Source: Malacoraja senta (Eukaryota). From it: a stretch of DNA of 64,000 nt. The notes below the pieces were generated by a model that was not told the origin of the DNA, did no database searches, and saw only the letters and a list, made by a program, of their open reading frames with translations. Both the position numbers and the translations under genes were made by a program. The stretch's first letter is position 1. Every line of letters begins with the position of its first letter. The stretch is from contig CM075993.1 in NCBI GenBank assembly GCA_038087875.1, positions 4,156,001-4,220,000 of the forward strand, written 5' to 3'. This document shows positions 1 to 61,967 of this stretch, one piece after another.

Positions 1-159
1 GCAATCCTGTCTGCAACCATTTTGCAGTAACTACACATTTCATTCATCGTTTAGCAGACTAAGTGATTGTCTTTCTGAATTGATGATAATAGCATTTCTT
101 GAAAGTGAGGGTCAAATTCATCGGTGTTGACAGCAACTGTATGGGGATAAACTGTAGAC

Positions 160-777: not shown

Positions 778-2250
778 CTGCGCAGCTGACAGACGTCTGG
801 ACTGACATCTTCAACCTGTCACTTGCCCAAGCAGTTGTGCCCACGTGCCTTAACCCACCTCCATCGTGCCGGTGCCAAAACACTCCACTGCGGTGAGCCT
901 CAACGACTTCCGCCCAGTTGCACTTACTCCCATCATCGCCAAGTGCCTCGAGAGGCTAGTCCTGGCACACCTCAAAGGCTGCCTACCCCCCACATTGGAT
1001 CCCTATCAGTTTGCCTACCGCAAGAACAGGAGTACGGGGATGCCATCTCAACGGCACTTCACTCCGCCCTCTCCCACCTCGACAACAGAGACACTTACGT
1101 AAGAATGCTGTTCATCGATTACAGCTCAGCATTCAACACCATCATACCCTCTAAACTGATCACCAAACTCGGTGACCTGGGCATTGACCCCTCCCTCTGC
1201 AACTGGATACTGGACTTTCTAACCAACAGACCCCAGTCTGTTAGGTTAGACAAGCAAACCTCTTCAACCCTCACCCTGAACACCGGCGTTCCACAGGGCT
1301 GTGTGCTGAGCCCCCTCCTCTACTCCTCTTCACCTACGACTGCACACCTGTACATGGTACTAACACCATCATCAAGTATGCAGATGATACAACGGTGATT
1401 GGCCTCATCAGCAACAACGATGAGTCGGCCTATAGGGAGGAGGTCCAGCTCCTAGCAGCATGGTGTGCTGACAACAACCTGGCCCTTAACTCCAAGAAGA
1501 CCAAGGAGCTCATTGTAGACTTCAGGAAGTCTAGGGGCGGCACGCACGCCCTCATCCACATTAACGAGCCGGAGGTGAACGTGTTTCCAGCTTCAGGTTC
1601 CTGGGGGGTCAACATCTCCGATGACCTCTCTTGGACCCACAATACCTCAACTCTGGTCAAGAAAGCTCACCAGCGTCTCTTCTTCCTGAGGAGACTAAAG
1701 AAGGTCCATCTGTCTCCTCAGATTCTGGTGAACTTCTACCGCTGCACCATCGAGAGCATCCTTACCAACTGCATCACAGTATGGTACGGCAACTGTCTCT
1801 GTCTCCAACCGGAAAGCACTGCAGAGGGTGGTGAAAACTGCCCAACGCATCACCGGTTTCTCACTCCCCTCCATTGAGTCTGTCCAAAGCAAGCGTTGTC
1901 TGCGAAGGGCGCTCAGCATCGCCAAGGACTGCTCTCACCCCAACCACAGACTGTTTACCCTCCTACCATCCGGGAGGCGCTACAGGTCTCTCCGTTGCCG
2001 GACCAGCAGGTCCAGGAACAGCTTCTTCCCTGCGGCTGTTACACTACTCAACACTGTACCTCGGTGGCTGCCAATCATCCCCCCCCCCCCCCGGACACTC
2101 CTCCCACCAGGAAAAAATACTATGACTGTATGCATGTAATTAGATTTATTTATTGCTCATATTTATGTCGCTCTTCTAGGGAGATGCTAACTGCATTTCG
2201 TTGTCTCTGTACTGTACACTGCACAATGCCAATAAAGTTGAATCTGATCT
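773..2250 (+). mobile_element. 5'-truncated, frameshifted Rex1/Babar-type LINE (reverse transcriptase remnant)
   Basis: Overlapping ORFs give [53 protein letters not shown] (1372-1392), KKAHQRLFFLRRLK, LPSGRRYRS; 3' end aataaagttgaatctga. Confidence 0.9.
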
Positions 2251-2376
2251 GAAGAAGGGTCTCGGACCGAAACGTCACCTAACCCTTCTCTCCGAAGATG
2301 CTGCCTGTCCCGCTGTGTTACTCCAGCTATTTGTGTCTATCTTCTGTTTAAACCAGCGCCTGCAGTTCCTTCCTAC
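2247..2376 (+). mobile_element. Penelope-derived hammerhead-motif module
   Basis: ctgaagaagggtctcggaccgaaacgtc followed by family consensus. Confidence 0.75.
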
Positions 2377-2593
2377 AAAATAAACTGTAGGATTGTTTGC
2401 TCGATTGCTGGACATATGGAGTTATTCTCAATCTGGCGTGTTGTCGCCGGGCAAGGCACGGCAGGAGAGGGGTCAAGTTTGTACTGGGATCTCCATGCCA
2501 AAGGTTAATGGGTTTCTGAAATCCTTTTAACAAAGATCAACACCCTGCAGAAATCTCGTCTTCCGGACTACCAAAACGAGATTAAGAAATGCT

Positions 2594-2750: not shown

Positions 2751-4710
2751 TAGACAATGGAGAGGAGAGAGCGTAAGAAAAGATTTGCAAAGAGCTTAAG
2801 ACAAGTATAATGATCAGGAGAGACTGAGCAGAACGGGGCTCTTTCCACAGAGATCAAAAAAGTCACCCGCCTCATTGGTGACCCCCGGACTATCCTTGAT
2901 CTGACTTTCCTGGCTTTACCTTGCCCTGATACCTTCTTTGAATATCAATGTTCACATACAACATAGAACAGTACAGCAAAGGAACAGGCCCATCGGCCCA
3001 CAATGTCTGTGTCGAACATGAAGCCAAGATAAACAAATCTCATCTATCTGCCATTGAAACTAGAACGAAAACCAAGAACCTTTAAAAGACATTTGGACAG
3101 GTACATGGGTAGGAAAAGTTGAGAGGGATATGGGCCAACTGGGGGCGGGTGTGACTAGCATAGATGAGTCATGTTGGTCGGCATGGGCTAGTCGGGCCTA
3201 AAGGCCTGTTTCTCTGCTACATGACTGGGCATCATGTTATAGGAAAGATGCCGTCAAGTTGGAAATGGTAGAGAAAAGATTTGAGGTTGGATCCATATCC
3301 CTCCATTCCCTGCATATCCGTGTGCCTATCTAAAGCCTCTTAAGCACCACCATCATATTTGCCTCCTCCACTGCCCTGGCAGTTTCTTTGACAACTCTAG
3401 GTGTGAAACACGTTCACATGTTTTGCTAAGTTAAGCTAAGTCTGAAGAAGGGTCTCGACTTGAAACGTCACCTATTCCTTCCCTCCAGACACGCTCTCTG
3501 ACCCGCTGAGTTACTCCAGCATCTTGTGTCTATCTTCGTGCTATATATCTGCTTGATGCAGGGAATCACTATAAACCATTCGACACAAGGCACATGATAT
3601 GAAGCCTGCCTTAAATAATGTACCAAGCTAATATTTCCTATGAGAATTTAGATAAGATTCAAGTTATTGCTTCAGTCGTTCATGAGGCAACTTTTGAATC
3701 ACGACTGATTCTGTAGGCTATGAAATTTTCGCTGCAAATTGCTTCTGAAATCTCAGTGATAATCTAAACTGCTGGCCTAAAGGGATTATTAGTTCCTTGC
3801 ATCTCAGACACTCAGCGATACTGAATGAATCCTGGCTGTCTTAGTAACAGGTTTCAGAAATGTAATTCCTTGCTGCAACTTTAAAGAACAGAAGGGCAAT
3901 GATATTCATGGAATTGTTTGAGGCCACAATGTTTGCTGTATGCCTTGTTTGAAGCGAAAGCAAACATTCATTTCCATAGTGCTTTTCAAGTACTGGGGAC
4001 ATTTAAAAAAATAGGGATTGCATTTGAACATTTGCAATGTAAAAAAGGCACGGCAGCCAAAATGTCAAACTTCTCAGTTATTAGCCGTGTGTTTGATTCT
4101 GTCATAGAGGGCATTGCCTTGGGATCAAGGGTCATCGACTCATAGAGTCCCACAGTGTGGAAACCGGCCCTTTGGCCCAACTAGCCCACACCGGCCAACC
4201 TGTCCCAGATACACTCATTGCACCTGCCTACGTTTGGCCCATATCCCTCTAAAGACTTTTGCCTCCATCACAGTGAGGAGATGTTGGGTGGACTCACTGT
4301 GGTGGATGTTAATATGTGTTTATTGTTGTTTTATGTATGACTGTTGCAATTTTGTTCAGACTTCGGTCTGAATGACAATAAAGGGCTATCTATCTAATCT
4401 AAAGCTGTCCTATCCATGCCCAGCAATGGCGGCTTATTAATAGAGAAAATGGTAGTTCATAAACTATCGGAGCAGAATGCCATTCGGCCCATCTTGTCTA
4501 CTCCGCCATTCAATCATGGCTGATCTATCTCTCCCTCCTAACCCCATTCTCCTGCCTCCTCCCCATATATATCCATAAACTATCCATTGACTTGGCCTCC
4601 ACAGCCATCTGGGACAGCACGCAGAGAGTCACCGCGTTACGGTGCCACCTTGCTGCCTCCAACGTCTGTAACTTTGGAGGTTGCAAGACCTTGGCCCAAG
4701 GAGATGTGCA

Positions 4711-7056: not shown

Positions 7057-7379
7057 AGACACTGCAGATGTTGGAATCCTGAGTCAAACACAAATAGTTG
7101 GAAGAACTCAGTGCATCTGGTGAGGTAAGGGACAGGTGATGTTTCAAGTCAGGGGGCCTTCTTCTGATTCTGAGGAAATAGGGTCTGAAGAAGGGTCTTG
7201 ACTTGAAATATCTCTTATCTGTTCGCTCCCCAAATGTTTCCTGACTTGCGGAGTTCCTCCAGCACTTTGTTTATTGCTCGGGCCTATATCTGTGTTGTAT
7301 GCCTCATTGTTTCTCAAATAAAAAACAGGCTAACAAGAAGTAAAGTGAAATACGTCCCTTGAAAACATTCAGTTTGAGT

Positions 7380-9158: not shown

Positions 9159-9196
9159 TTGGCAGAGAGCATCATTGAGCGACAGACATTCTTAAA

Positions 9197-9408
9197 AAGA
9201 TAGACACAAAATGCTGGAGTAACTCAGCGGGGCAGGCAGCATCTCTGGAGAGAAGCAATGGGTGACGTTTCAGGTCAAGACCCTTCTTCGGACCTGAAAC
9301 GTCACCCATTCCTTCTCTCCAGAGATGCTGCCTGCCCCGCTCAGTTACTCCAGCATTTTGTGTCTATCTTCGATGTCAACCGGCATCTGCAGTTCCTTCC
9401 CACACACA
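9197..9408. mobile_element. Fold-back (palindromic) Penelope-derived insertion with 13-bp TSD
   Basis: Arms 9197-9276 and 9291-9370; TSD acattcttaaaaa at 9186-9198 and 9409-9421. Confidence 0.85.
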
Positions 9409-12589: not shown

Positions 12590-12720
12590 TAGAAACAAGG
12601 AACTGCAAATGCTGCTTTACACAAAGGGACACAAAGTGCTGGAGTAACTCAGCGGGTCAGACGACATCTCTGGAGAACATTGATAGGTGACGTTTCGGTT
12701 CGGGACCCTTCTTCAGACTG
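12590..12720 (-). mobile_element. Penelope-derived hammerhead-motif module
   Basis: gacgtttcggttcgggacccttcttcag = reverse of ctgaagaagggtcccgaaccgaaacgtc. Confidence 0.75.
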
Positions 12721-15025: not shown

Positions 15026-15279
15026 AACTCAACGGGTCAGGCAGCATCTCTGGGGAACATGGATAAGTGACGTTTCGGGTTGGGACCTGAAATGTTGCCT
15101 ATCCTTGTTCTCCAGAGATGCTGACTGACCCGCTGAGTTACTCCAGCACTGTGTCTTTTTTTGTAAACCAGTACCTGCAGTTCCTTGTTTCTACTTCTCA
15201 GTATTAGCAAAATCTATAAACCTAAGACAACATTAATTTATAAAGTATGTTTAACATAGTAAACTGACTGAAGTGACAG

Positions 15280-19196: not shown

Positions 19197-19667
19197 ATTC
19201 CTGGGATGGCAGGACTTTCATATGAAGAAAGACTGGATAGACTCGGCTTGTACTCGCTAGAATTTAGAAGATTGAGGGGGGATCTTATAGAAACTTACAA
19301 AATTCTTAAGGGGTTGGACAGGCTAGATGCAGGAAGATTGTTCCCGATGTTGGGGAAGTCCAGAACCAGGGGTCACAGTTTAAGGATAAGGGGGAAGTCT
19401 TTTAGGACTGAGATGAGAAAATCATTTTTCACACAGAGAGTGGTGAATCTGTGGCATTCTCTGCCACAGAAAGTAGTTGAGGCCAGTTCATTGGCTATAT
19501 TTAAGAGGGAGTTAGATGTGGCCCTTGTGGCTAAAGGGATCAGGGGGTATGGAGAGAAGGCAGGTACAGGATACTGAGTTGGATGATCAGCCATGATCAT
19601 ATTGAATGGCGGTGCAGGCTCGAAGGGCCGAATGGCCTACTCCTGTACCTATTTTCTATGTTTCTAT
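19197..19667 (+). mobile_element. Young CR1/HER1-type LINE 3' fragment
   Basis: Uninterrupted ORF 19206-19577 ending GYGEKAGTGY*; nearly identical to copies at 25484 and 34005. Confidence 0.92.
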
Positions 19668-21215: not shown

Positions 21216-21692
21216 CCCAAATTGTCTCCTCTCCCAGTTACATATCGTATACTTCCATGAATCCCTTGAGGTGAAACTGTTCATTTTGTACCCCCATCCT
21301 TCGCAGTTTTAGCTCTGCGTTCCCTGGGATTTGAGCCATTGATCGTCACTTTCTCGGGATCAATATTCCTCAATTCCCATCATGGTTTTGGCAAAATCAC
21401 TGTGGGAAAATACACCCAATTAAATCCCACATCTTTTTTTGGAAATGGCTTCTGGACGTACTCAAGGCGGTTGACATGACCCTATTGTTGAAGGCCGTTA
21501 CACTCGAGTGCTTGTTATTTTTACATGCGATCACAGCTTTCTGCAGCCAGATGTTGGCCCGCTGCAGTGGAGGGAAGGCAGTCAGTCAGTGCAGGCGCTT
21601 CCCAATATCCCTGGGGTTGCACTGCTGTCTTCACGAGAAGATTAACTATCCCTAATCCATAGTTCACATCCACAAAGCTCCGTAGCCACTAC

Positions 21693-22152
21693 TTGGTGAG
21701 ACCAAGCGGAGGCTTGGCGATCGTTTCGCCGAACACCTCCGGTCGGTCCGCATTAACCAACTTGACCTCCCGGTGGCTCAGCACTTCAACTCCCCCTCCC
21801 ATTCCGTATCTGACCTCTCTGTCCTGGGTCTCCTCCATGGTCACAGCGAGCAACACCGTAAATTGGAGGAAATGCACCTCATATTCCGCTTGGGCAGTCT
21901 ACATCCTGGGGCCTTGAACATTGAATTCTCCCAATTCTGCTAGCCCTTGCTGTCCCCTCCCCTTCATCAGCCCTCTGGTTGTCTCCTCCCCTCCCCCAGC
22001 CCTCAGGCTTCTCCTCCGCCTTTTTCCTTTTTTCCTTTCTTCTCCCCACCCCCTATCAGTCTGAAGAAGGGTTTCGGCCCGAAACGTTGCCTATTTCCTT
22101 CGCTCCATAGATGCTGCTGCACCCGCTGAGTTTCTCCAGCATTTTTGTGTAC
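21693..22152 (+). mobile_element. 5'-truncated Penelope-like element with 15-bp TSD
   Basis: Encodes GETKRRLGDRFAEHLRS...PVAQHFNS...RKLEE (GIY-YIG); hammerhead motif 22061-22088; TSD ctccgtagccactac 21678-21692 / 22153-22167. Confidence 0.88.
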
Positions 22153-22552
22153 CTCCGTAGCCACTACGTTGCGTGCTCTGCACTGGGAAACTTCAAGCTA
22201 GTTCGTGGACTTAATAAAATGCAATGCTTGCGGTGAAGTTGCCACGCGGCACGCTGGTTCTTTGCAAGTCTTTGCTTTCTTCCTGAGGGCTTTGTTGAAT
22301 TATTTACCAGGCTCGGCTTGGAAAACCCCGTGTGACCCTGATTTTATTTTATGTTTGCTGCGCTACTCCTTAACGCTGATGAATATTCCGAGTAATTGTT
22401 TCCAGTGGCCCCGGGCAGTTGACCTGAGCTGTCACTTGTCGAAGCTCTTACATGGAGGGGACAACAAACTCGCTGCATCCTAAAGTGTCACCCAGCTCAG
22501 AGGTGGCAGGGATGATGGTGAGGAGGAACATGACCGTATCAATCCAGACCCG

Positions 22553-23236
22553 AAGATAGACACAAAAAGCTGGAGTAACTCAGCGGGACAGGCAGCATCT
22601 CTGGAGAGAAGGAATGGGTGACGTTTTGGGTCGAGACCCTGGGTCTGAAGAAGGGTCTCGACCCGAAATATCACCCTTCCTTCTCTCCAGACTCACCTGC
22701 ACCTCCTCCAACCTCATCTATTGCATCCGCTGTTCCAGGTGTCAACTGCTCTGCATTGGTGAGACCAAGCGCAGGCTTGGCGATCACTTCGCCCAACACC
22801 TCCGCTCAGTTCGCAATAACCAACCTGATCTCCCGGTGGCTCAGCACTTCAACTCCCCCTCCCATTCCCAAGCTGACATTTCTGTCCTGGGCCTCCTCCA
22901 TGGTCAGAGTGAGGCCCAGCGCAAATTGGAGGAGCAGCACCTCATATTTCGCTTGGATCGTTTACACCCCAGCGGTATGAACATTGACTTCTTCAATTGC
23001 AGGTAGTCCTTGCTTTCTCCCTCCTCCCCCTCCCCTTCCCAGCTGTCCCACAGCCCACTGTCTCCGCCTTTTCCTTTCTTTTTCCCGCCACCCCCCCCGA
23101 AAACAGTCTGAAGAAGGGTCTCGACCCGAAACGTCGCCTATTCCTTCGCTCCATAGATGCTGCCTCACCCGCTGAGTTTCTCCAGCATTTTTGTCCACCT
23201 TCGATTTTTCCAGCATCTGCAGTTCTTTCTTAAACA
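22553..23236 (+). mobile_element. Penelope-like element: inverted terminal module, GIY-YIG endonuclease fragment, terminal module
   Basis: ORF 22614-23006: TCTSSNLIYCIRCSRCQLLCIGETKRRLGDHFAQHLRS...RKLEEQHLIFRL..LHPSGMN (CxxC + GIY-YIG). Confidence 0.9.
23108..23135 (+). ncRNA. Minimal type-I hammerhead ribozyme-like motif (best-preserved copy)
   Basis: CTGAAGA a GGGT ctcg ACCC GAAA C GTC: core boxes, 4-bp stem II, loop-less palindromic stem III; activity untested. Confidence 0.6.
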
Positions 23237-23312: not shown

Positions 23313-24280
23313 AAGGAGGGTATCAGAAGAGACTGGGAACAAGAGTTAGCTATTAAAATTTCAAAGGAAAGTTGGAATGAACACTTATTAAACGTGCATA
23401 AATGCTCGATTAATGTAAGACACACTTGAATACAATTTAAAATTTTACATAGATTATATTATTTGAAAACTAAAATTCATAAAATTTTCCCAAATGTATC
23501 ATCTATTTGTGATAAATGTCAATCACAAGAAGCTACTATAACACACTCATTCGTTTTCTGTACAAAAATTCAAAAATTTTGGAATGAAATTTTTGAAATC
23601 TTTACAAAGTTATTTAAAAGAAGACTGATACCCAAAGCAGAATGGATTATCTTCGGTATAACGGAAGATGGTCCAGAACTAAATGTGTTTCAAAAGAAAC
23701 TAATGGACTATGGGTTAATAACTGGAAAAAAGCTAATTCTAAAATTTTGGAATGAGGCTCCAATACCAATATAAATATGTGGATTTCAAACATTACACCT
23801 AGAAGAGATAAGACTCCTCCTAGCAGGTAAACCAGATCCACCTGACGTGGTCTGCATTTATAGAATTATTACAAATATAGGGTGCAAAAGTACTTAAAAA
23901 AAAATAAAAAATTGAGGTCAGGTAAGGGGGGATGCTAGTTGAAGAGTTGGTATGTCCCATTTACGTAATGCTCATAAAAATATTTGTTTCTCTCTTTTTC
24001 TTCTTTCTCTTTCTCTTTCTTTTCTAGGGTCTATTCCTTAACTCTTTTTCTTTTGTTTTTAATTTTGCTCTTATAGGGTCTTCGTTCTTTTTTGTTGTCA
24101 CATTTCCTACACTTTCACTTTTTCCTTCACTTTCTTCTTTCTTTCAATCTTTTCCTTTTCTAGTGTAAAAAATAAATGGAGTACATTAATTGTAAGAAGA
24201 TATAAATGACGAGTACTAATGTATGTGGTTGTAATGTAATGTACTTCTAATAAAGAAAAAAAGATTAAAAAAAAAAAAAA
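23313..24280 (+). mobile_element. 5'-truncated L1-clade LINE with poly(A) and 14-bp TSD
   Basis: ORF 23463-23774 has ORF2 C-terminal CxxC..H....C knuckle (CDKCQSQEATITHSFVFC) and FKILHRLY upstream; T-rich 3' UTR; aataaa then poly(A); TSD atgtatctatacac 23299-23312 / 24281-24294. Confidence 0.9.
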
Positions 24281-25170: not shown

Positions 25171-26122
25171 AGCCCCTGTCCCACTGTACGAGGTAATTCA
25201 AGAGTTCTCCCGAGTTTACCCCTGATTCGAACTCGGAGAATGTCCGTAGCGGGCCCGTAGGAGTTCGTGGATGTCACGTAGCGGCTCGTACGAGTAAAAA
25301 GCACAATTTTTTTTCATCGCGTGTATTGTTTTACTCGTGGACATTTTTCATAGTGTTGAAAAAACGTCACGAGTTTACCGGATTTCCCGGGTACCTACCG
25401 GTACTTGTACGAGCCGCTACGGGACATCCACGAACCCGCTACGGACAATCTCCGAGTTCGAATCAGGGGAAAACCCGGGAGAACTGAGGAAGGACATTAT
25501 AGCCATAGAGGGAGTGCAGAGAAGGTTGACCAGACTGATTCCTGGGATGTCAGGACTTTCATATGAAGAAAGACTGGATAGACTTGGCTTATACTCGCTA
25601 GAATTTAGGAGATTGAGAGGGGATCTTATAGAAACGTACAGAATTCTTATGGGGTTGGACAGGCTAGATGCAGGAAGATTGTTCCCGATGTTGGGGAAGT
25701 CCAGGACAAGGGGTCACAGCTTAAGGATAAGGGGAAATCCTTTAAGACCGAGATGAGAAAAAACTTTTTCACACAGAGAGTGGTGAATCTCTGGAACTCT
25801 CTGCCACAGAGGGTAGTTGAGGCCAGTTCATTGGCTATATTTAAGAGGGAGTTAGATGTGGCCCTTGTGGCTAAAGGGATCAGGGGGTATGGAGAGAAGG
25901 CAGGTGCAGGATACTGAGTTGGATGATCAGCCATGATGATATTGAATGGCGGTGCAGGCTCGAAGGGCCGAATGGCCTACTCCTGCACCTATTTTCTATG
26001 TATCTATGTATCTATGGGACATCCACGAACTCCTACGGACCCGCTATGGACATTCTCCGAGTTCGAATCAGGGGAAAAATCGGGAGAACTCTTGATTTAC
26101 CTCGTACAGTGGGACAGGCCCT
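25171..26122. mobile_element. Harbinger-like MITE (TAA TSD) interrupted by a CR1 LINE
   Basis: TIR cctgtcccactgtacgaggtaa / ttacctcgtacagtgggacagg; taa on both sides. Confidence 0.88.
25484..26015 (+). mobile_element. Young CR1/HER1-type LINE 3' fragment
   Basis: LRKDIIAIEGVQRRLTRLIPGMSGLSYEERLDRLGLYSLE; (ctatgtat)n tail. Confidence 0.92.
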
Positions 26123-33265: not shown

Positions 33266-34004
33266 TACAATGGTAATATAGAGATGCCTCCACTCTCATT
33301 TCAGCCGTGAGCGCTGGGCCCCCCAACCACCCTCGCAGCGAGAATGTTTTTTTCCCCCCATTTCTCCTCTAATCCTTCTACCAGTGCCTTTAAATCTCTA
33401 CCCCTCTGTTTTATTGGCCCCCTCTGTCTAGGCTGCACGTTATGTTTCATCTTACAAGTTTAGAGGGATGGCAGGAAACATCGGCTGATGAGCCAAATGC
33501 CAAACAAATTGAGTTTCTGAATGGTCTGATGTGGTGTTATCAAAGTTTTATTGTCATAGAGTCACATGTGGAAACGGACTTAAATTGTTGAATTTCTCAG
33601 TTCAGATCCGGTTTTGCTTTGTGTTATTTTATTTATTTCGTTTATTTTTATTCTTATTTTATTCTTATCAATTTTTTAATTGTTTTTAGATTAGGGGAGT
33701 TTTGTTTTTTCTTTTTCTTTTTGTCTTTTTATCTTTGCTTTTTTTTAAAACATTTATAAGTTTCCTTTTAAAGATTTAAATATATTTACATAGAGGTCTA
33801 TATTCATTGGTCTCATATTAAAGTAAAGCGACTTTTAGTCCTGAAAAGCGCTATATAAATAAAATCTATTATTATTATTATATTAGGTTATACCTGTAAT
33901 TAATGTAATCCTGATCCCTGACTTTGGGAGAACTGGGGATGGGGACTGGACATTGTGTCTTCCCCCACAGTGGTAACCATTGTGGGGGGATGATTTTTGT
34001 ATTA

Positions 34005-34757
34005 TCTAAATGGTGGCCGATTAGGAAATGGGGAGGTGTCATGGTACACCAGTCATTGAAAGTAGGCATGCAGGTGCAGCAGGCAGTGAAGAAAGCGAAT
34101 GGTATGTTGGCCTTCATAGCAAGAGGATTTGAGTATAGGAGCAGGGAGGTTCTACTGCAGTTGTACAGGGTCTTGGTGAGACCACACCTGGAGTATTGCG
34201 TACAGTTTTGGTCTCCAAATCTGAGGAAGGACATTATAGCCATAGAGGGAGTGCAGAGAAGGTTCACCAGACTGATTCCTGGGATGTCAGGACTTTCATA
34301 TGAAGAAAGACTGGATAGACTTGGCTTATACTCGCTGGAATTTAGGAGATTGAGAGGGGATCTTATAGAAACGTACAAAATTCTTATGGGGTTGGACAGG
34401 CTAGATGCACGAAGATTGTTCCCGATGTTGGGGAAGTCCAGGACAAGGGGTCACAGCTTAAGGATAAGGGGGAAATCCTTTAAGACCGAGATGAGGAAAA
34501 ACTTTTTCACACAGAGAGTGGTGAATCTCTGGAACTCTCTGCCACAGAGGGTAGTTGAGGCCAGTTCATTGGCTATATTTAAGAGGGAGTTAGATGTGGC
34601 CCTTGTGGCTAAGGGGATCAGGGGGTATGGAGAGAAGGCAGGTACGGGATACTGAGTTGGATGATCAGCCATGATCATATTGAATGGCGGTGCAGGCTCG
34701 AAGGGCCGAATGGCCTACTCCTGCACCTATTTTCTATGTATCTATGTATCTATGTAT
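34005..34757 (+). mobile_element. Young CR1/HER1-type LINE, 5'-truncated
   Basis: Stop-free ORF2 C-terminus to 34655: QVQQAVKKANGML...[15 protein letters not shown]...GYGEKAGTGY*. Confidence 0.95.
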
Positions 34758-37225: not shown

Positions 37226-37758
37226 TCAGCAAACAGCTAACAATGGCCTGCGTCCCTTATCATCGTTACTTTTCCTCTCCGTCCTGGGCCTCCTCCATGG
37301 CCAGAGTGAGCACCACCGGAAATTGGAGGAGCAGCACCTCATATTCCGCTCGGGCAGTCTGCACCCTAGCGGCATAAACATTGAATTCTCCAATTTCCGG
37401 TAGCCCTTGCTGTCTCGTCCCCTTCTCAGCTCTCCTTCAGCCCATGGGCTCCTCCCTTTCTCCTTTCTTCTCCACGCCCCTCCCCCCCACCCTACATCAG
37501 TCAGCATCTATGGAGCGAAGGAAATAGGCAACGTTTCGGCCCGAAACCCTTTCGGGTTTCGTCCCGAAACGTTGCCTATTTCCTTCAGGGTTTCGTCCCG
37601 AAACGTTGCCTATTTCCTTCGCTCCATAGATGCTGCTGCACCCGCTGAGTTTCCAGCACTTACTGTATGTCTACCTTCGTTACTTTTCTGCATATCTTTC
37701 ACTCATTTGTTCTGTATCTCTACATCACCGTCTGTATCTCGAGTTTCCCTTTCCCCTT
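37226..37758 (+). mobile_element. Penelope-like element nested in another Penelope-like fragment
   Basis: LSVLGLLHGQSEHHRKLEEQHLIFRSGSLHPSGINIEFSNFR*; tcgttactttt repeated at ~37263 and ~37678; tandem/inverted hammerhead pieces 37531-37620. Confidence 0.8.
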
Positions 37759-38860: not shown

Positions 38861-39211
38861 AACCCACAGCCTGTTGTGCAGAGAGACAGAGCCAAGATCA
38901 ATCAGAGTGAACGTAATACTTTGCAATGAATGGATGCTGCAATGGATTGGGGTGAAGTAGTGCACTTTTCTTCAGGAAGCAGCATGCACCTTGGGGAGTG
39001 TGTGCAGCTGTATTTTTTTAAAAATCTATCTCTACTCGTGTATAAGTATAGATACATTCTGAAGAAGGGTCTCGACACAAACGTCACCTATTCCTTTTCT
39101 CCAGAGATGCTGTCTGACCCACTGAATTACTCCAACTTTCTGTGTCAATCTTCGGTTTAAACCAGCATCTGCAGTTCCTTCCTACACATAGATATCCATC
39201 TATCGATACTT

Positions 39212-41043: not shown

Positions 41044-41640
41044 ACTCACACTCACACTCACACTCACACTCACACCCACACTCACACTCACACTCACACT
41101 CACACTCACACTCACACTCACACTCACACTCACGCTCACACTCACACTCACACTCACACTCACACACACACACACCAGGGACAATTTACATTTATACCAA
41201 GCCAATTAACCTACAAACCTGTGTAAGAAGGAACTGCAGATGCTGGATAAAATCGAAGGTAGACACAAAATGCTGGAGTAACTCAGCGGGTGAGGCAGCA
41301 TCTATGGAGAGAAGGAATGGGTGACGTTTCGGGTCTCGACACAAGATGCTGGAGTAACTCAGCGGGTGAGGCAGCATCTATGGGGAGAACGAATTCCTTC
41401 TCTCCATAGATGGTGTCTCACCCGCTGAGTTACTCCAGCATTTTGTGTCTGTCTACCTTACCTACAAACCTGTTTGTCTTTGGAGTGTGGGAGGAAACCG
41501 AAGATCTCGGGGAAAACCCGCGCAGGTCACGGGGAGAACGTGCGAACTCCGTACAGGCAGCACCTGTAGTCGGGATCGAACCCGGGTCTCCGGCGCTGTG
41601 AGCAAGCGCTGTAAGGCAGCAACTCTACCGCTGCTCCGCC
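40548..41640 (-). mobile_element. V-SINE expanded by an internal microsatellite (40642-41174) and a Penelope-derived palindrome (~41222-41456)
   Basis: SINE consensus resumes on both sides; acctacaaacct repeated at ~41210 and ~41460. Confidence 0.8.
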
Positions 41641-42616
41641 CGGGATCGCTCTCAATCCATTTCTGTCATAGGAGCAGAATTAGGCCATTCGGCCCATCAA
41701 GTTCACCCCGCCTTCAATAATGGCTGATCTATCGTTCCCTCACAACCCCATTCCCCTGCCTTCTCCCCATAACCCCTGACACCCGCACTAATCGTGAATC
41801 TATCCATCTCCGCCTTATAAATATCCATCTCTGCCTTAAAAACAATCCCTGTGACGTGGCCTTCACTGCCTTCTGTGGCAATGAATTCCGCAGATTCACC
41901 ACCCTCTGACTAAAGAAATTCCGGCTGAAGAAGGGTTTCGGCCCGAAACGTTGCCTATTTCCTTCGCTCCATAGATGCTGCCGCACCCGCTGAGTTTCTC
42001 CAGCATTTTTGTCTACCTTCCATCTCATCTCCTTCCCAAAGGAACGTCCTTTTATTCTGTCCACATTGGTGACCCTTGATCGGACTTTGCTGGCTTTACC
42101 TTGTACTAAATGTTAATCCCTTATTCATGTATCTATACACTGTAAATGGCTCGATTGTAATCATGTATTGTCTTTCCGCTGACTGGTTAGCACGCAATAA
42201 AAGCTGCAACACTGTACCTGCACGTGACAATAAACTAAATTAAACTAAATTAAGACATAGGTTTAAATTGCGAGGGGAAAGATTTAATCGGAAACCTAAG
42301 GGGCAGCTTCTTCATTCAGAGAGCGGAGGCTACATAAAACAAGCTGCCAAAGGAAGTATTTGAGGCCGGAACTGTAGCAGTAGTTAAAAGACACTAGGAC
42401 AGGTACATCATGGATAGGAAAGGTTTAGAGAGATATGGGCTAAACATAGGTAGGTGGGACTAGTGTAGATGGGGCATCTTGGTCAGTATGGCCGAGTTGG
42501 GCCGAAGGGCCTGTCTCTGTGCTGTATGACTCTTGGACATTGTAGACTGAAGGGCTTTTTCCTGTGCTGTGCTGTAGTAAGATTGCTGATTTAATCCACT
42601 TGTAGCGATTACGTAC

Positions 42617-43305
42617 GATAGACACAACATGCTGGAGTAACTCAGCGGGACAGGCAGCATCTCTGGAGAGAAGCACGCAGGTACAGCAGGCAGTGAAGAA
42701 AGCAAATGGCATGTTGGCCTTTATAACAAGAGGTGTCGAGTATAGGAGCAAAGAGGTCCTTCTGCAGTTGTACAGTGCCCTAGTGAGACCACACCTGGTG
42801 TATTGTGTGCAGTTTTGGTCCCCTAATTTGAGGAAAGACATTCTTGCTATTGAGGGAGTGCAGCGTAGGTTTACAAGGTTAATTCCCGGGATGGCGGGAT
42901 TGTCATATGCTGAGAGAATGGAGCGGCTGGGCTTGTACCCTCTGGAGTTTAGAATGATGAGAGGGGATCTTATTGAAACATATGAAATTGTTAAGGGTTT
43001 GGACACGCTAGAGGCAGGAAACATGTTCCCGATGTTGGGGCAGAAATGGGGTACTGATTGTGGATGATCAGCCATGATCACATTGAATGGCGGTGCTGGC
43101 TCGAAGGGCCGAATGGCCTACTCCTGCACCTATTGTCTATTGTCTAGGGAGTGGGTGACGGTTCGGGTTGAGACCGAGGGAAGGGTCTCGCCCTGAAACG
43201 TTACCCATTCCTTCTCTCCAGAGACGCTGCCTGTCCCGCTGAGTTACCCCAGCATGTTGTGTCTATCTTCTGTTTAAACCAGCACCTGCAGTTCCTTCCT
43301 ACACA
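42617..43305. mobile_element. Fold-back Penelope-derived insertion interrupted by a CR1 LINE (42674-43146, plus)
   Basis: Inverted arms; TSD tgtagcgat(t/a)ac at 42601 and 43306; CR1 ORF 42693-43067. Confidence 0.85.
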
Positions 43306-49194: not shown

Positions 49195-49715
49195 TAGGTG
49201 CAAATTGGAGGAACAGCATCTCATATTTTTGCTTGGGCAGCTTCCAACCCAGTGGTATGAATATTGATTTCCCAAACTTCAAGTAACCCCTGCATTCCCT
49301 CTCTCTCCGTCCCTCCCCCACCCAAGTCGCACCAGCTTCTCGTTCTCACCTAGCAAACAGCTAATAATGGCTTGTTACCTTTTTTGCATATCTTTCATTC
49401 ATTTGTTCTATATCTCTCTATATCGCCGTCTATATTTGTCTGTAGAATTCTCTGCCTCAGAGGGCGGTGGAGGCAGGTTCTCTGGATACTTTCAAGAGAG
49501 AGCTAGATAGTGCTCTTAAAGATAGCGGAGTCAGGGGATATGGGGAGAGGCAGGAACGGGGTACTGATTGGGGATGATCAGCCATGATCACATTGAATGG
49601 CCGTGCTGGCTCAAAGGGCCGAATGGCCTACTCCTGCACCTATTGTCTATTGTCTATTGTCTATTATATATCTCATTTCCCTTTTCGCTGACTGTCAGTC
49701 TGAAGAAGGGTCTGT
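49195..49715 (+). mobile_element. Penelope-like fragment interrupted by a CR1 3' end (~49438-49665)
   Basis: CKLEEQHLIFLLGQ-like C-terminus; module resumes at tatatctcatttccc. Confidence 0.75.
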
Positions 49716-52472: not shown

Positions 52473-54133
52473 CATGCCTTATTAGCCTGAATGTTGTCCA
52501 TCTCTTGCTGCATGATGGCAGGGGCTGCATCGTTTGCTGAGGAGTTGCAAACATCGAACATTCTGGTATCCCCACGCTGACCATACAATGGCAGGAAAGT
52601 GACTGTCGAAGCAGGAGAGGGTGACTGGACCCAGAATAATGTCAAGAGGAACTCCCACAGTTGAGACGATTGACCTCCAATAAACTCAACAACCTTCTTT
52701 TGTGGAGACACAAGAAGCTGCCGGTGCTGCAATCTTGTGCAAAACACAAAGTGCTGGAGGAACTCAGCAGGTCAGGCAGCATGTGCAGGAAGGAACTGCA
52801 GATGCTGGTTTAAACTGAAGATCGACACAATATGCTAGAGTAACTCAGCGGACAGGCAGCAACTCTGGAAAGAAGGAATGTGTGACTTTTTGGTTCGAGA
52901 CCCTTCATCAGACAGCATCTGTGGAAGGAATGTACAGACGAACTTTTGGGTCGGGACCCCGTCTTCGGGAAAATGTTTGTGTACACTCTCTGATTTCAAC
53001 AGCAGAGTGCTTACCCTTCAAAGCCAATTGATCTTGTGTTGATGAAATAGTTAAATAATCTGCAGGCTTCTACTCAACTATGGTTGACAAGAAAATAACA
53101 TCACATGCCCAGGCACAAGTGAGACCCAGGGGCACAAAACCATCCAGGAGCAACAACAAACATTCTGTTTGGTTTCAAAAACAAGGCCTAATTCTGATGG
53201 CTTCCACAGATAGTTTGCAACGGTATAACACAGTTGAGGCTGATTATTTCTCTACAAGTTTCTGATCAGAGCAAAGACAACAGAACATGCAGAGTATTTA
53301 TAGACACAAAATGCTGGAGTAACTCTCCAGAGATGCTACCTGTCCCACTGTGTTACTCCAGCATTTTGTGTCCATCTTCGGTGTAAACCAGCATCTGTAG
53401 TTCCGCTCTACACATGCAGTGTTTAATCCAGTGGCACAGGGCACTCTGCCAACAAGTGACCTGAGGGTGACAACTGCCTGAAGAGTCCTGGCCCATGATG
53501 TCACCAATGCTGCCTGACCTGCTGAGTTAATCCAGCGCTTTGTGTTTTACTCAATATTCCAGCATCTGCAGTTCCTTGTCTCCACACCAACTTCTAATAT
53601 AACATGTCTTTCGGATAGGAAAAAGGTGCCAAAGCTGTTCACAGTAGCGTGTCAAAATAAAATGAACAATAAGGTACACTACATATTGGAGCAGTATTCA
53701 AAAGCTTGATCACAGAGACAAGTTAAAGAGGAACATGAGTCTGAGGCGTTTCCACAGATCGGAAAGGGTTTAAAAAAAACAAGGATATAAATGTTCAAAT
53801 GTTGCTTAATCAATATCCCGTGCAAGTGAGCAAGCAAAGGAGTGCAGCAAAGGGAAACTGATTATGCCCGGATCAGACACATCTCCGGGGGAAAAAATAT
53901 ACCTCTCTCAAAAAATATTTACATGTCCTATTTATATTCTGGTTTGAAAACAACTGTTGCTGGGCTACAGAATACATTTGCAATTTAATTAAAAGGGCAA
54001 ATTTAAATATTAAAGAAAGTTAAGAATGTTTTTAAAAGGCTTATAATTTCTTAATAAAATCTAAATTTTGTGTTAGTCAATTACCATACATTGACACAAG
54101 CTGCATTGCTGTTTTATTAAAGGCAGAAGACTA

Positions 54134-58681: not shown

Positions 58682-58998
58682 CCTCACCGTCATTCGTCTC
58701 CTGCAGCAACGAGGCCTCGGCTCCGTCGTCTTCGGGGTAGCACATGCTGCTGCTGCCGGTGCCGTTGCCGGCGCCGCCGGGGTGGGGCTAGGCCCGGGGA
58801 TCGGGCCGGCGTTCGGCAGCTGCCGGGCCCCCCCCCATCGCCGCGCTCGGCGCCGCCGCCCCCACATTGTGACCCGGCTCTCGCTGCCGCCGTCACCATC
58901 GTGCTGCCCAACCGCCACCCGCGCGCTCGGCACCGCCACAGCGCCGCCCGCAGGACTGGAGGCTCCCCTGCGGGCGGCACCGCCACCATTCGGCCCCT
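58682..58998 (-). promoter_or_regulatory. CpG island / putative promoter and 5' UTR
   Basis: Very GC- and CpG-rich unique sequence in a CpG-depleted window, ending at a splice donor. Confidence 0.65.
58688..58745 (-). CDS. Candidate first coding exon of an unidentified host gene (MCYPEDDGAEASLLQETND, phase 1)
   Basis: ATG in agcagcATG context, upstream in-frame TAG, consensus donor ACG|gtgagg, non-repetitive CpG island; no second exon identified. Confidence 0.55.
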
Positions 58999-59019: not shown

Positions 59020-60400
59020 AGGTTATTAATTGATCACATACACCATAGGTGTAGTTTAGAAATGCTTCTTGCCAATGCAGCATTAAAAAAAAATACAGAC
59101 ATAACAATAATAAAGAGATTTAAACATAAAAAAACATCCCCCCACAATGGTTCCCATTATGAGGGAAGGCACAAAGTCCAGTCCCCATCCCATGTCCACC
59201 CACAGTCGCGCCTATTGAGGCCTCCGCAGTCGCCTTTACGGAGACCCGATGTTCCAGGCCGTTCTCGCCGTTTGATGGTGCTCCGGCGTCGGGAGTATCC
59301 TCTCAGCGGCTTGGGACACCTGGAACAGCCGCTTCCTTACCGGAGACCGCGGCTTCTGAAGCCAACAAGGCCGCGCTTTCACCCTTACTCAAAGGTCAGG
59401 TTGTTGTCACCACCTGTACCAATTAAGGTGCAGTGAGACTCGAATCACCATAGTCATACTAAAAAAAAAAGCAACAAGACACACAAGAACAAGAGGAAGA
59501 AGTTTGAACTTTATTGCGTTCCATCCCAGCGAGGAATGTGGAATGTGTTTAAGGAACTGCAGATGCTGGAAAATCGAAGGTAGACAAAAGTGCTGGAGAA
59601 ACTCAGCAGGTACAGCAAGCAGCATCTATGGAGCGAAGGAAATAGGCAACGTTTCGGGCCGAAACCCTTCTTCAGACCCACATTCACAGTGGAATGTGGA
59701 ATCCACTGTGATGGATGTTTATGTTGACTTTTATGTGGTTGTGTGTCTTGTTGCTTCACTGCGTATGGCTGTACGGTAACTGAAATGTCATTGTTCCTCA
59801 ATTGGTACATGTGACAATAAACTGACCTTGAAACCTTGAACTACATAAAAGTTAACATAAACATCCGCCACAGCGGATTCCCCACATTCCTCACTGTGAT
59901 GGAAGGCAATAAAGTCTAATCTCTTTCCTCTTTTTCTCGAACCATCCGCAGTCGGAGCGATCGAAGCTCCCGCAGCCGTTGGTCGAAGCTCCAGAGATCG
60001 GGGCGGTCGAAGCTCCCGCGGCTTGGAGCTCCCGAAGTCGGTCCCAAACCAGGGACCGCGAGCTCCACGATGTTAAAGTCCACAAGCTCCTGCGGTTGGA
60101 GCTCCGGAAGTCGGTCCCCAGCAGAGGCCGCCAACTCCACGATGTTAGGCCGTGGTGCGGACGGTGATACGATATGGAAAAAAATCACATCTCTGTTGTG
60201 GTAAGAGATTTTTTTTTAAGTTTCCCCCAACCTCCCCCCCCCCCAATTTGTTGTATTTATCTCTCTACATCACCGTCTCGCTCTCGTTTCCCTTTCCCCT
60301 GACTCTCAGTCTGAAGAAGGGTTTCAATGCGAAACGTCACCGATTCCTTTTCTCCAGAGATGCTGCCTGACCCGCTGAGTTACTCCAGCTTTTTGTGTTT
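59020..60400. mobile_element. Cluster of non-autonomous LINE-derived 3' ends and Penelope modules
   Basis: 59120-59195(-) matches 33935-34000(+); 59685-59840(+) and 59845-59910(-) resemble 4260-4400; hammerhead modules at 59648-59675(-) and ~60311(+). Confidence 0.6.
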
Positions 60401-61967
60401 GTCTTTACCTTAATAGGCAGAGTTCTCCCGCCTACCCAGTTTTTTTTTTTGACATAGCACTTTTACTGAAAACCTTTACAGTTCCTTCCTACACAAAACT
60501 TTTCCAATGGCCTGGAAGTAGCCAGTCTCTCGTTAACATCTCACCCAAAAGACAGTGCAGCTCCTCCCCCCCCCCCCCAATTTTTGCACCAAAAATATTA
60601 ACAGATAAACTAAGCCTCAAGTCTCTGGAGTGAGTATGTAAAGCGTGTTTTAAGGGCCAAGGACGCAATGACTGGCTCCGATAAGGATTTGTGGAGAGCA
60701 ACATATCAGGAGGTGTCAGGGGTTATGGGGAGAAGGCAGGGGAATGGGGTTGAGAGGGAGAGATAGATCAGCCATGATTGAATGGCAGAGTAAACTCGAT
60801 GGGCCGAATGGCCAGATTCTGCTCCAATCACTTATGAACCTCTTGAGTAGTGCCACCACCTGGAAGCTCCAGCCTCAGGTTTGAGGGTGACCCCAGTTAC
60901 TATATGTGGAGTTTACGTCCATCCCCTGACGACACTTTTTACTGTTTGCTCCTGTTTTCTCTCACATCTTGAAGACAATTAGAAATTAACAGTAAATTGC
61001 AGGGAAATTAGGGTAATGGGACAGATTGGATTGGTGTGCTGTCAGCTGTTATGTACACAATAGCCTCATACTGGGCTTGGTGTAAGATAGCATAAAATGG
61101 GAAAAGTCCTTCCTCCCTGACTAGATAATCTTTGCTGCCCCCATCGTCTTTGATAAATTACCCACTGCGTGCATGGTAAACATCCAAACGCGCTTCTATG
61201 TCGAAAGGCACAAGGCTTCATAGAGCAATATAGTCAAAGCTCATTGGGTCAAAAGTTATCCCAGGCACAAAAAGCTTGCCAAAATCTTTTACCAATTGAG
61301 CGCATCAGTGCATTTATCAGTGGAAGAGGTTAAAGAGCACAATGAGCTTTGGGAACTTTTATCTTTATGTGAATGCTTTGGAGAAAACAAGTTAAGCAAA
61401 CACAACACCATTTTGCTCAAACCCAGCTTTCCTTTCCCAAAGCCAATGGCTGTGCTTTGCCTTCACAACACCTGGTGTTCAAGATTTCAAAGTGTTTTGT
61501 TTTAATCTGCCAAGTATACATTCATTGAATTATCAATTGCTTTTAATGTATGTTTTCCTTTCCATGAAAAAGACATTCTTTATTTTAATCTGAGCAAGCT
61601 GTCCAGCATTCTTTCCACTGGGTTATCAATCACAATGATCCCAGTCTTTTGGTAAGAAGTCAGGAAAGTAATTGAACACACCTTTGGTTACAGTCCAGGT
61701 CAACATGCACCAAACTATAGTGATAACAAATCAAGTCTTAAATGAAACCAAAAAGTTAAATAGCAAAATACAAACTTTCTGACATTACTTTTTTCCACAC
61801 TTCCAATTTTATCAGATCCTCATCAGTTTATCAGATTTTTATCAGATCCTTGGCATGAATGTGGAGGAAGTGATAATTATTTAATAAATCAGATTTAGAA
61901 CCTCAATACATGGATATTAAAGAGTTAGTTTCTAGAACTTAAAAAGGTAAACAAGTTTGATCCCACT

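What the first reader, a model, noticed from the sequence alone, without database searches (positions are those of the whole stretch)
23108..23135. High-copy minimal hammerhead-ribozyme motif in Penelope-derived modules, with a conserved stem II and variable loop
Seen: CTGAAGA-A-[stem II]-GAAACGT(C/T) recurs at ~248, 2249, 3442, 7185, 12689(-), 18905, 20555(-), 22061, 22645, 23108, 39059, 41925, 59648(-) and 60311, many of them degenerate. Stem II is kept while the loop varies: GGGT-ctcg-ACCC, GGGT-ttcg-GCCC (U-G wobble), GGGT-cccg-ACCC, GGGT-tccg-ACCC. Stem III is the loop-less palindrome ACGT; stem I is only ~2 bp (gt/ac or gt/gc). Knowledge: Penelope pLTRs carry minimal type-I hammerheads thought to need dimerisation. 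Inference: a ribozyme-bearing module spreading largely without its ORF (one per few kb here), a candidate SINE/retrozyme-like system. Minus-strand copies would be sense in the putative host pre-mRNA.
Basis: partly seen in the sequence, partly recalled or inferred. Interest (0 to 1): 0.7.

Follow-up and report, generated by a model that had tools for sequence, protein, structure and literature searches.

The report
Penelope retrotransposon ends carrying minimal hammerhead
The repeated motif is a real minimal hammerhead-ribozyme sequence at the end of a Penelope-like retrotransposon in what is likely a skate genome, a known arrangement, and its many short copies are likely stubs copied from uncut RNA, because they tend to begin just before the ribozyme and none begins at its predicted cut site.

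Summary
The motif is real (8 strict matches vs 1.5 expected) and fits the published minimal type-I hammerhead of Penelope-like elements (PLEs). At 23108 it lies 105 nt behind the C-terminus of a GIY-YIG endonuclease whose closest relatives are skate proteins. Relatives at about 45-50% protein identity carry a min-HHR at the same distance, with covarying stems; their commonest motif is the published coral Neptune hammerhead. Copies show the PLE hallmarks: two 3' end sites about 33 nt apart (tail), fold-back inversions, some target duplications.

No hammerhead tandem array or SINE head was found. Only 7 of 24 copies keep boxes and stems. Private mutations hit core and flank equally, and loop variation is subfamily difference plus CpG decay.

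One detail goes further: 14 of 44 5' ends fall at -31..-27, at an initiator-like site, and none at the cut site. That suggests run-off copying of uncleaved RNA. Cleavage, transcription start and host gene were not shown. The scan noted the same class before in shark DNA. Verdict: new member of a known kind.

The parts
22550..22640 (-). Inverted arm of the module, from the first 3' end site (+68 relative to C17) back to stem II; subfamily A, differs from the 23108 copy (78/89)
22643..22691 (+). Second hammerhead copy (C3 at 22645, stem III reads ATAT), starts at -29, forms a long hairpin with the inverted arm, then joins endonuclease coding sequence
22692..23006 (+). C-terminal about 100 codons of a GIY-YIG endonuclease of a Neptune-like PLE, ending in its stop codon; 5'-truncated, no RT
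   Evidence: (74-80% identity to skate proteins; 48% to 902-aa P0020 with RVT_1 + GIY-YIG)
23007..23104 (+). Pyrimidine-rich 3' UTR / upstream part of the pLTR
   Evidence: (sequence)
23103..23108 (+). Initiator-like site (TCAGTC in sister copies, 5 of 6 in this copy); predicted A+1 at 23105, where 5' ends of short copies cluster
   Evidence: table 7; consensus
23108..23135 (+). Minimal type-I hammerhead: CUGAAGA, bulged A, 4-bp stem II, GAA, palindromic ACGU, C17; predicted cut after 23135
   Evidence: descriptor in PMC4209133
23136..23203 (+). Segment to the first 3' end site (+64..+68); includes a pyrimidine stretch predicted to pair with GAAGGG and compete with stem II
23204..23236 (+). 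Optional ~33-nt tail to the second 3' end site (+94..+102)
   Evidence: tail described
21689..22157 (+). Subfamily B copy: endonuclease C-terminus, UTR, intact hammerhead (UUCG loop, U17) at 22061, ends at +68
37296..37679 (+). Subfamily B copy: endonuclease end, UTR, fold-back and a 34-nt duplication of the 3' half of the hammerhead (5' box lost)
49200..49713 (+). Subfamily A copy: endonuclease end and UTR interrupted by another repeat, then the 5' half of the hammerhead
9196..9407 (.). Fold-back insertion: inverted arm ends at -29 and continues as its own complement from -12; arms 78/80 identical; tail on one side; 13-bp flanking duplication
41220..41460 (.). Three-piece fold-back insertion, junction in stem II, 14-bp flanking duplication
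7082..7270 (.). Older head-to-head pair, both arms reaching -28/-29
2248..2377 (+). Solo module from -28 to the tail end
3439..3538 (+). Solo module from -30 to +68
12594..12720 (-). Solo module, subfamily C, from -31 to the tail end; stem II has a G-A mismatch
39058..39188 (+). Solo module from -28 to +101, 7-bp flanking duplication, G12 missing
41925..42023 (+). Solo subfamily B module from -27 to +68, intact hammerhead, inserted in another repeat
52790..52913 (-). Module from -29 to +101 nested inside an older module copy
59546..59677 (-). Solo subfamily B module from -29 to the tail end, intact hammerhead, flanked by a direct duplication
60230..60405 (+). Subfamily A copy with about 70 nt of UTR, decayed stem II

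Best explanation
The motif is a minimal hammerhead sequence lying 105 nt behind a GIY-YIG endonuclease C-terminus, in the terminal repeat of a likely Neptune-clade Penelope-like retrotransposon, and the many short copies are likely dead insertion stubs copied from uncleaved element RNA rather than a separate SINE or retrozyme. Proposed cycle (inferred): transcription would start at the initiator-like site 3 nt before C3; the element protein would nick target DNA and start reverse transcription at one of two internal sites, +67 or +100, as shown in vitro for the anole Poseidon element; starting in the 3' repeat gives 5'-truncated copies that reach into UTR and endonuclease, starting in the 5' repeat gives ~97 or ~130-nt run-off stubs ending at the RNA start; the cDNA end often snaps back on the complement of stem II and primes the mirror arm. 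The ribozyme is predicted to be off in a lone RNA and would cut only as a dimer or with protein help; selection keeps it in active master elements, not in the scattered copies.
For: Shown: endonuclease fragment directly upstream. 17 of 41 relative loci with an EN C-terminus and >=200 nt downstream have a strict min-HHR within 500 nt, 14 of the 17 at +96..+105 (focal +105); their commonest motif matches the Acropora digitifera Neptune row of Fig. S3 of PMC4209133. Across 15 sequences, 24 cells change on both sides of a pair, 0 of 500 shuffles. 3' ends: 14 of 49 at +64..+68, 21 of 49 at +94..+102, none between +69 and +90 (hand-curated); relatives also show two clusters. 5' ends: 14 of 44 at -31..-27 (p=9e-7 vs uniform), 0 of 44 within -1..+3, five at -12 (hand calls); upstream DNA of the edge group is not UTR-like (pyrimidine fraction 0.37-0.73 vs 0.73-0.93). 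In run X19, loose ends before 23105, 23106 and 23107 number 766, 833 and 524 contigs with low-agreement AT-rich flanks. Snap-back junction read directly at 9262-9312. Neutral decay of copies. Stem-II pair probability 0.00-0.16 in six monomer folds. Literature: unprocessed RNA is the main substrate and the anole HHR needs protein; min-HHRs cleave weakly as dimers.
Against: No RNA 5' end, cleavage or protein activity was observed. The end tallies are hand calls on about 50 pieces of one window, and pieces from one insertion are not independent. The CAG before -28 follows a pyrimidine tract and could be a splice acceptor rather than an initiator. A perfect BBCABW site at -8..-3 was found in only 5 of 9 families tested, with local UTR background up to 0.44; two of the three skate UTR types have no TATA-like element. 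Arms of older pairs are no closer to each other than to other copies (6 or more of 13 comparisons). RT and the Neptune linker are not in the window. The covariation set is related sequences, about six families, one of them dominant. Contig loose-end tables were cut (2125 rows not shown).
Confidence: 0.75

Rival explanations
1. The ~100-130-nt module is a self-propagating non-autonomous PLE derivative (SINE-like): an internal Pol II promoter overlapping the hammerhead lets stubs be transcribed and re-inserted in trans by PLE protein.
For: Stubs far outnumber EN-linked copies (4 of about 41 loci) and have discrete ends. With A+1 at 23105, +18..+22 reads CGACC, a perfect revised MTE (6 of 9794 other CA sites do so), and +28..+32 is 4 of 5 DPE. 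D. virilis Penelope has an internal promoter; pLTRs suffice in cis for trans mobilisation.
Against: Most stubs start at -29/-28 and so have lost the initiator. The UTR types seen are EN-linked in the window. Subfamily B breaks the MTE match and relatives do not keep its register. No short-only subfamily was shown, but this was not testable in 64 kb.
Confidence: 0.13
2. A non-LTR retrozyme: tandem hammerhead-bearing units are transcribed, self-cleave as dimers, circularise and re-insert.
For: Non-LTR retrozymes are reported to derive from PLE pLTRs and occur in one chondrichthyan. Contigs show rare head-to-tail joints 23138->23104 (7 contigs in X19, 2 in X1) and 23201->23105 (7 in X19, 1 in X1). 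Two box-intact copies lie 463 nt apart at 22645 and 23108.
Against: No tandem array with a complete hammerhead per unit among 60 TRF rows; the one 34-nt duplication lacks the 5' box. 0 of 44 5' ends at the cut site. Minimal, not canonical, hammerhead; no Rfam hammerhead hit. Head-to-head outnumbers head-to-tail in the window.
Confidence: 0.06
3. The -28 boundary is a splice acceptor: the UTR is a pLTR intron ending at helix I, as in D. virilis Penelope, and stubs come from spliced RNA or from RT arrest at this junction.
For: Pyrimidine tract plus CAG directly before TCTGAAG in the skate UTR types; in D. virilis the intron ends at the 5' side of helix I; a donor-like GT sits at the endonuclease stop in some copies.
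Against: Stubs share no constant upstream exon; relatives have no AG at this place but TATA at -39 and CCAAT near -64; no matching GT-AG joint among the joints shown (list cut, runs not confirmed as RNA).
Confidence: 0.06

Closest known systems
Minimal type-I hammerheads (min-HHR) in pLTRs of metazoan PLEs (Cervera and De la Pena 2014, PMC4209133), especially the Acropora digitifera Neptune motif
   Same: Boxes CUGANGA and GAAA, bulged nucleotide before stem II, G10.1-C11.1, loop-less palindromic CG, position in the repeat behind the endonuclease, mostly single genome-wide copies from truncated elements, opposite-strand pairs
   Different: Helix I is only 2 bp here (consensus row shows 3; 2 bp occurs in D. 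virilis and Culex). No elasmobranch appears in Table S1 or the Fig. S3 rows read. Local density here is one module locus per 1.6 kb.
Neptune-clade EN+ PLE insertions with inverted pLTR, junction palindrome and 30-40-bp tail (PMC8557442, PMC3846280)
   Same: C-terminal GIY-YIG, heavy 5' truncation, inverted 5'-truncated arm, tail on one end, short target duplications, self-priming interpretation
   Different: RT and Zn-finger-like linker are absent from the window copies; most insertions are 100-250-nt stubs; the snap-back point maps to hammerhead stem II.
Poseidon_Ac of Anolis (Frangieh et al. 2024, PMC11167929)
   Same: Two end sites bounding the tail, hammerhead upstream of them, no sign of ends at the cleavage site
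   Different: Poseidon clade; there the ORF starts in stem II and activity was measured; here nothing was assayed and the ORF start is unknown.
Non-LTR retrozymes (PMC7229834; bioRxiv 10.64898/2026.07.22.740005)
   Same: Type-I hammerhead, related to PLE pLTRs, many dispersed monomers
   Different: No tandem units each with a complete hammerhead in the window; minimal rather than canonical ribozyme; circles not tested.

Membership tests
PLE minimal hammerhead (min-HHR) | Core boxes CUGANGA, GAAA and UH | tested here: met
   Focal copy; 7 of 24 window copies fully intact
PLE minimal hammerhead (min-HHR) | Bulged nucleotide after A9, G10.1-C11.1, palindromic 15.2-16.2 | tested here: met
   vs descriptor
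PLE minimal hammerhead (min-HHR) | Covarying helices I and II | tested here: met
   Across families 24 two-sided cells, 0 of 500 shuffles; none among window copies alone; sequences are related
PLE minimal hammerhead (min-HHR) | Stable helix I of 3 or more pairs | tested here: inconclusive
   2 bp in skate copies; double-hammerhead fold -6.7 vs -19.7 kcal/mol for the free cofold (model ignores tertiary core)
PLE minimal hammerhead (min-HHR) | Self-cleavage as dimer or with protein | not testable with these tools
   needs bench assay
EN+ PLE, Neptune clade | C-terminal GIY-YIG endonuclease | tested here: met
   By homology: 66% to P0004 and 46-48% to P0020, both PF01541 above cut-off; the fragment alone has no GIY-YIG Pfam hit
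EN+ PLE, Neptune clade | RT domain in the same ORF | tested here: inconclusive
   Absent from the window; present in relatives P0004, P0020; no RT tree built
EN+ PLE, Neptune clade | Zn-finger-like linker between RT and EN | tested here: inconclusive
   Window copy starts downstream of it; Cys motif present in closest relatives P0001, P0003, P0004
EN+ PLE, Neptune clade | Optional 30-40-bp tail (two 3' end sites) | tested here: met
   14 of 49 at +64..68 and 21 of 49 at +94..102
EN+ PLE, Neptune clade | Inverted 5'-truncated copy with junction palindrome | tested here: met
EN+ PLE, Neptune clade | Target-site duplication | tested here: inconclusive
   13 and 14 bp in 2 of 20 insertions, 7-8 bp in 5, none of 5 bp or more in 7; random intervals reach 8 bp in 9%
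EN+ PLE, Neptune clade | Spliceosomal intron in the 5' region | tested here: inconclusive
   Acceptor-like sites seen; no confirmed RNA run, joint list cut
Non-LTR retrozyme | Tandem units each with a complete type-I hammerhead | tested here: not met
   None in the window; rare head-to-tail joints in contigs of related runs
Non-LTR retrozyme | Abundant circular RNA | not testable with these tools
   only contigs, none on record as RNA
SINE | tRNA-, 5S- or 7SL-derived constant 5' head | tested here: not met
   No tRNA gene, no Rfam hit, no shared upstream head among edge-starting copies

The most novel reading that the evidence does not exclude
The hammerhead is the first structure of the PLE transcript: a Pol II start sits 3-8 nt before C3 across Neptune families, the genome is littered with 'strong-stop' run-off cDNAs from uncleaved RNA that snap back on stem II, and in skates the same 30 nt double as an internal promoter (Inr + MTE-like), so stubs can re-transcribe. 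The ribozyme would then act as a dimer- or protein-triggered off-switch that separates cap or ORF from the RT start site, not as the processing step of transposition.
Probability: 0.2. Interest if true: 0.65.

Novelty: new member of a known kind. Interest (0 to 1): 0.3.

Why it matters
The class is known since 2014, so the motif itself is not news. The role of PLE hammerheads is still open (PMC8557442 and PMC11167929 say so). A genome with one stub per 1.6 kb gives a large fossil record of where reverse transcription started and stopped. If the -30 peak and the empty +1 hold genome-wide, they argue against cleavage or circle-based transposition in vivo and make the transcription start and snap-back steps directly testable.

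Tried and rejected
Whole genome: none held, so no genome-wide copy statistics. Rfam: no hit at gathering score in the window; at E<=10 near the focal site only miRNA-hairpin-type chance hits, no hammerhead family. Viral contigs: 0 matches to the skate motif. RNA evidence: no RNA holder listed; four runs were laid as contigs, which cannot show starts, strand or level; depth was not used as copy number, and the variant table was cut (166 rows hidden), so it could not test core conservation. Intron from the endonuclease stop to the AG before ATG at 23157: no such joint among those shown (357 hidden); left open. Host gene: 145 of 227 candidate ORFs and 52 of 102 candidate exons gave no convincing host family; the exon-like peptide found no homologue. 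Strand bias of intact copies below 58686 (6 of 14 plus, 0 of 8 minus; two-sided p=0.051) is post hoc and rests on an unverified gene; not used. Relaxed motif count in relatives (34 of 41) includes spurious matches; not used. Arm-identity test supports one-template origin clearly only for 9196/9407. DNA similarity of the skate UTR/module to relatives: nothing below E 0.04. No structure prediction, RT tree or covariance model was run.

Full report
1. Observation. The strict pattern occurs 8 times against 1.51 expected. A fuzzy scan finds a copy at each of the 14 listed places and more; blast with seven window copies gives 60 segments, some spurious, which I merged by hand into 41 loci covering 7.3% of the window. 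Positions below are relative to C17 (23135 = 0). Of 24 copies spanning the 5' box, 7 keep all 11 core positions, four stem-II pairs and a palindrome; three of these have U at position 17 and two have ATAT in place of ACGT. Rfam has no matching family.

2. What lies around it. Positions 22692-23006 encode the end of a GIY-YIG endonuclease. Its best matches are Leucoraja erinacea and Rhinoraja longicauda proteins at 74-80% identity and a whale-shark protein at 66%; a 902-aa relative carries RVT_1 and GIY-YIG. The host is therefore likely a skate (inference). The closest relatives carry a Cys motif in the RT-EN linker, which marks Neptune and Nematis elements. Four endonuclease ends occur in the window on the plus strand and no PLE RT. 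Each is followed by a pyrimidine-rich UTR and a module or part of one, in three variants.

3. Is it a hammerhead under selection? Among window copies, rare variants are as frequent in the core as in the flank (15/223 vs 63/1235 non-CpG cells, p=0.33), so inserted copies decay neutrally. Variants shared by three or more copies occur at 0 of 10 core and 20 of 62 flank positions (p=0.053). Twenty changes in stem II, loop, G12 and stem III are CpG-type. To reach deeper, I fetched 80 metagenome loci encoding relatives (best 80 of 490). Of 41 with the endonuclease C-terminus and enough downstream DNA, 17 have a strict min-HHR within 500 nt, 14 of them at +96..+105; the focal copy is at +105 (no shuffle control; five minus-strand hits in 80 loci, four being the same family motif). 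UTRs share no DNA similarity with the skate module. A 15-sequence alignment is colinear from C3 to C17 apart from one shorter loop; 88.9% of cells pair, 24 change on both sides, 0 of 500 shuffles reach this, and slid controls give at most 41.5%. These are about six related families, so the shuffle count is not a probability. The commonest motif in these loci matches the Acropora digitifera Neptune row in Fig. S3 of PMC4209133.

4. Ends of copies. 3' ends cluster at +64..+68 (14 of 49) and +94..+102 (21 of 49), with none from +69 to +90 (values curated by hand, because the aligner over-extended several). Relatives show two clusters too, about +60..+79 and +120..+129. This is the optional 30-40-bp tail of PLEs, which in vitro equals two internal RT start sites. 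For 5' ends I left out 9 pieces that continue into UTR. Of the other 44, 14 lie at -31..-27, 12 at -21..-12 (five at -12), none at -1..+3. Contigs of run X19 agree: 766, 833 and 524 loose ends before 23105-23107 with unrelated AT-rich flanks, and 1342 before 23104 with C-rich flanks, which are UTR variants (table cut). At 9262-9312 the inverted arm runs to -29 and continues as its own complement from -12, a perfect snap-back; the arms share 78 of 80 letters and the insertion has a 13-bp duplication. Other junctions sit in stem II itself (15058-15112, 41318-41345). Flanking duplications are clear in 2 of 20 insertions and 7-8 bp in five more; random intervals reach 8 bp in 9%.

5. Why -30? Sister copies read TCAGTC there, the Drosophila initiator consensus and a match to the human one, with A+1 three bases before C3. 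Subfamily A has a TATA-like stretch about 32 nt upstream in some copies; the other two UTR types do not. In the largest relative family a TATA box lies at -39 (strict match in 11 of 53 motif copies, a CATATAAA variant in many others by eye) and CCAAT at -58..-70 (32 of 53, my count), predicting a start about 7 nt before C3. A perfect BBCABW at -8..-3 occurs in 5 of 9 families, against background 0.06-0.12 over 2 kb but up to 0.44 in local UTR, so this is a hint only. By eye, 5 of 56 rows of the published Fig. S3 show UCAGUY just before or into helix I. A start at -30 would also explain the 2-bp helix I. The same CAG could be a splice acceptor; see rivals.

6. Folding. Six monomer folds give stem-II pair probabilities of 0.00-0.16, mostly because GAAGGG pairs with the pyrimidines just past the cut site. 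For the focal copy the double-hammerhead fold scores -6.7 kcal/mol against -19.7 for the free cofold. The model ignores tertiary contacts, so this predicts an 'off' default and not inactivity. It fits weak dimer cleavage, protein-assisted cleavage, and activity in 1 of 9 Xenopus dimers.

7. Mechanism. Shown: anatomy, homology, covariation, end clusters, one clean snap-back junction, neutral decay. Inferred: start of transcription at -30, RT initiation at the two tail sites, run-off from the 5' repeat, conditional cleavage. RNA cut at 0 could only give copies starting at +1 and lacking the hammerhead; none is seen, so the inserted templates were likely uncleaved.

8. Known systems and novelty. 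This is a min-HHR of a PLE pLTR; defining sequence features are met and activity is untested. Neptune membership rests on relatives. Retrozyme and SINE tests fail in the window, though rare head-to-tail joints exist in related runs. Searches for Penelope with hammerhead, skate/elasmobranch, shark, pLTR promoter, dimers, and Neptune with Chondrichthyes showed no paper on this skate family or on a 5'-end peak at the hammerhead edge; the library lacks most subscription journals and Repbase/Dfam were not available, so the family may well be catalogued. Two earlier notes of this scan describe the same fold-back class in shark DNA.

9. What I read. PMC4209133: main text parts 1-2 of 4, supplement file 2 parts 1-2 of 3 (file 1 not searchable). 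PMC11167929: parts 1-2 of 4. bioRxiv 10.64898/2026.07.22.740005: parts 1-3 of 5; its supplementary tables, which name the chondrichthyan retrozyme families, were not seen and may bear on novelty. PMC8557442, PMC3846280, PMC5580651, PMC2377424, PMC7229834, PMC6155905: passages only. Hammerhead numbering and the names CR1, Rex1/L2, L1/Tx1 and HE1 for neighbouring repeats are recalled, not from a call.

10. Verdict. Observation partly confirmed, interpretation partly supported. New member of a known kind; interest 0.3. The end-mapping pattern is the part worth a genome-wide check.

Noticed in passing
window 58688-58745 (-): CpG island with an exon-like stretch (ATG, 19 codons, GT donor) on the minus strand; gene not identified by Pfam or homologue search.
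   Followed up: partly
window 1-58686: Intact hammerheads are 6 of 14 on plus and 0 of 8 on minus, i.e. absent from the strand that would be sense in the putative gene; p=0.051, post hoc.
   Followed up: partly
window 54355-55383 (-): Tc1/mariner (Sleeping Beauty-like) transposase relic in several frames: HTH_SB, HTH_Tnp_Tc3_2, DDE_3.
   Followed up: no
window 790-2247 (+): LINE reverse-transcriptase 3' part (RVT_1, ALKBH8_N-like tail domain); a module is inserted right at its 3' end.
   Followed up: no
window 19197-19577, 25298-25756, 33915-34655, 42606-43067 (+): Several 3' ends of a CR1-like LINE (name recalled); a short 3' piece of a repeat also interrupts the PLE UTR at about 49437-49680.
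   Followed up: no
window 23430-23771 (+): zf-RVT fragment of another LINE just downstream of the focal element.
   Followed up: no
window 7185 and 22645 (+): Two copies have ATAT instead of ACGT in stem III, which stays palindromic; could be double decay or a small subfamily.
   Followed up: no
window 23122-23126 (+): Loop II and stem II 3' side read CGACC exactly at +18..+22 from the predicted start, a perfect revised MTE; broken in subfamily B.
   Followed up: partly
window 26571 (+) and 62532 (-): UTR-bearing copies that appear to have lost the 5' box by a short internal deletion between GTC-like microhomologies.
   Followed up: no
L013:1188-1252, L025:907-971: Relatives carry CCAAT and TATA-like boxes at fixed distances before the hammerhead; L004 and L006 instead show octamer-like and E-box-like words (names recalled).
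   Followed up: partly
contigs of runs X19 and X1 laid on 23104-23201: Rare head-to-tail repeats of the hammerhead unit (about 35-38 nt) and of the 97-nt module; natural dimer candidates for a cleavage assay.
   Followed up: no
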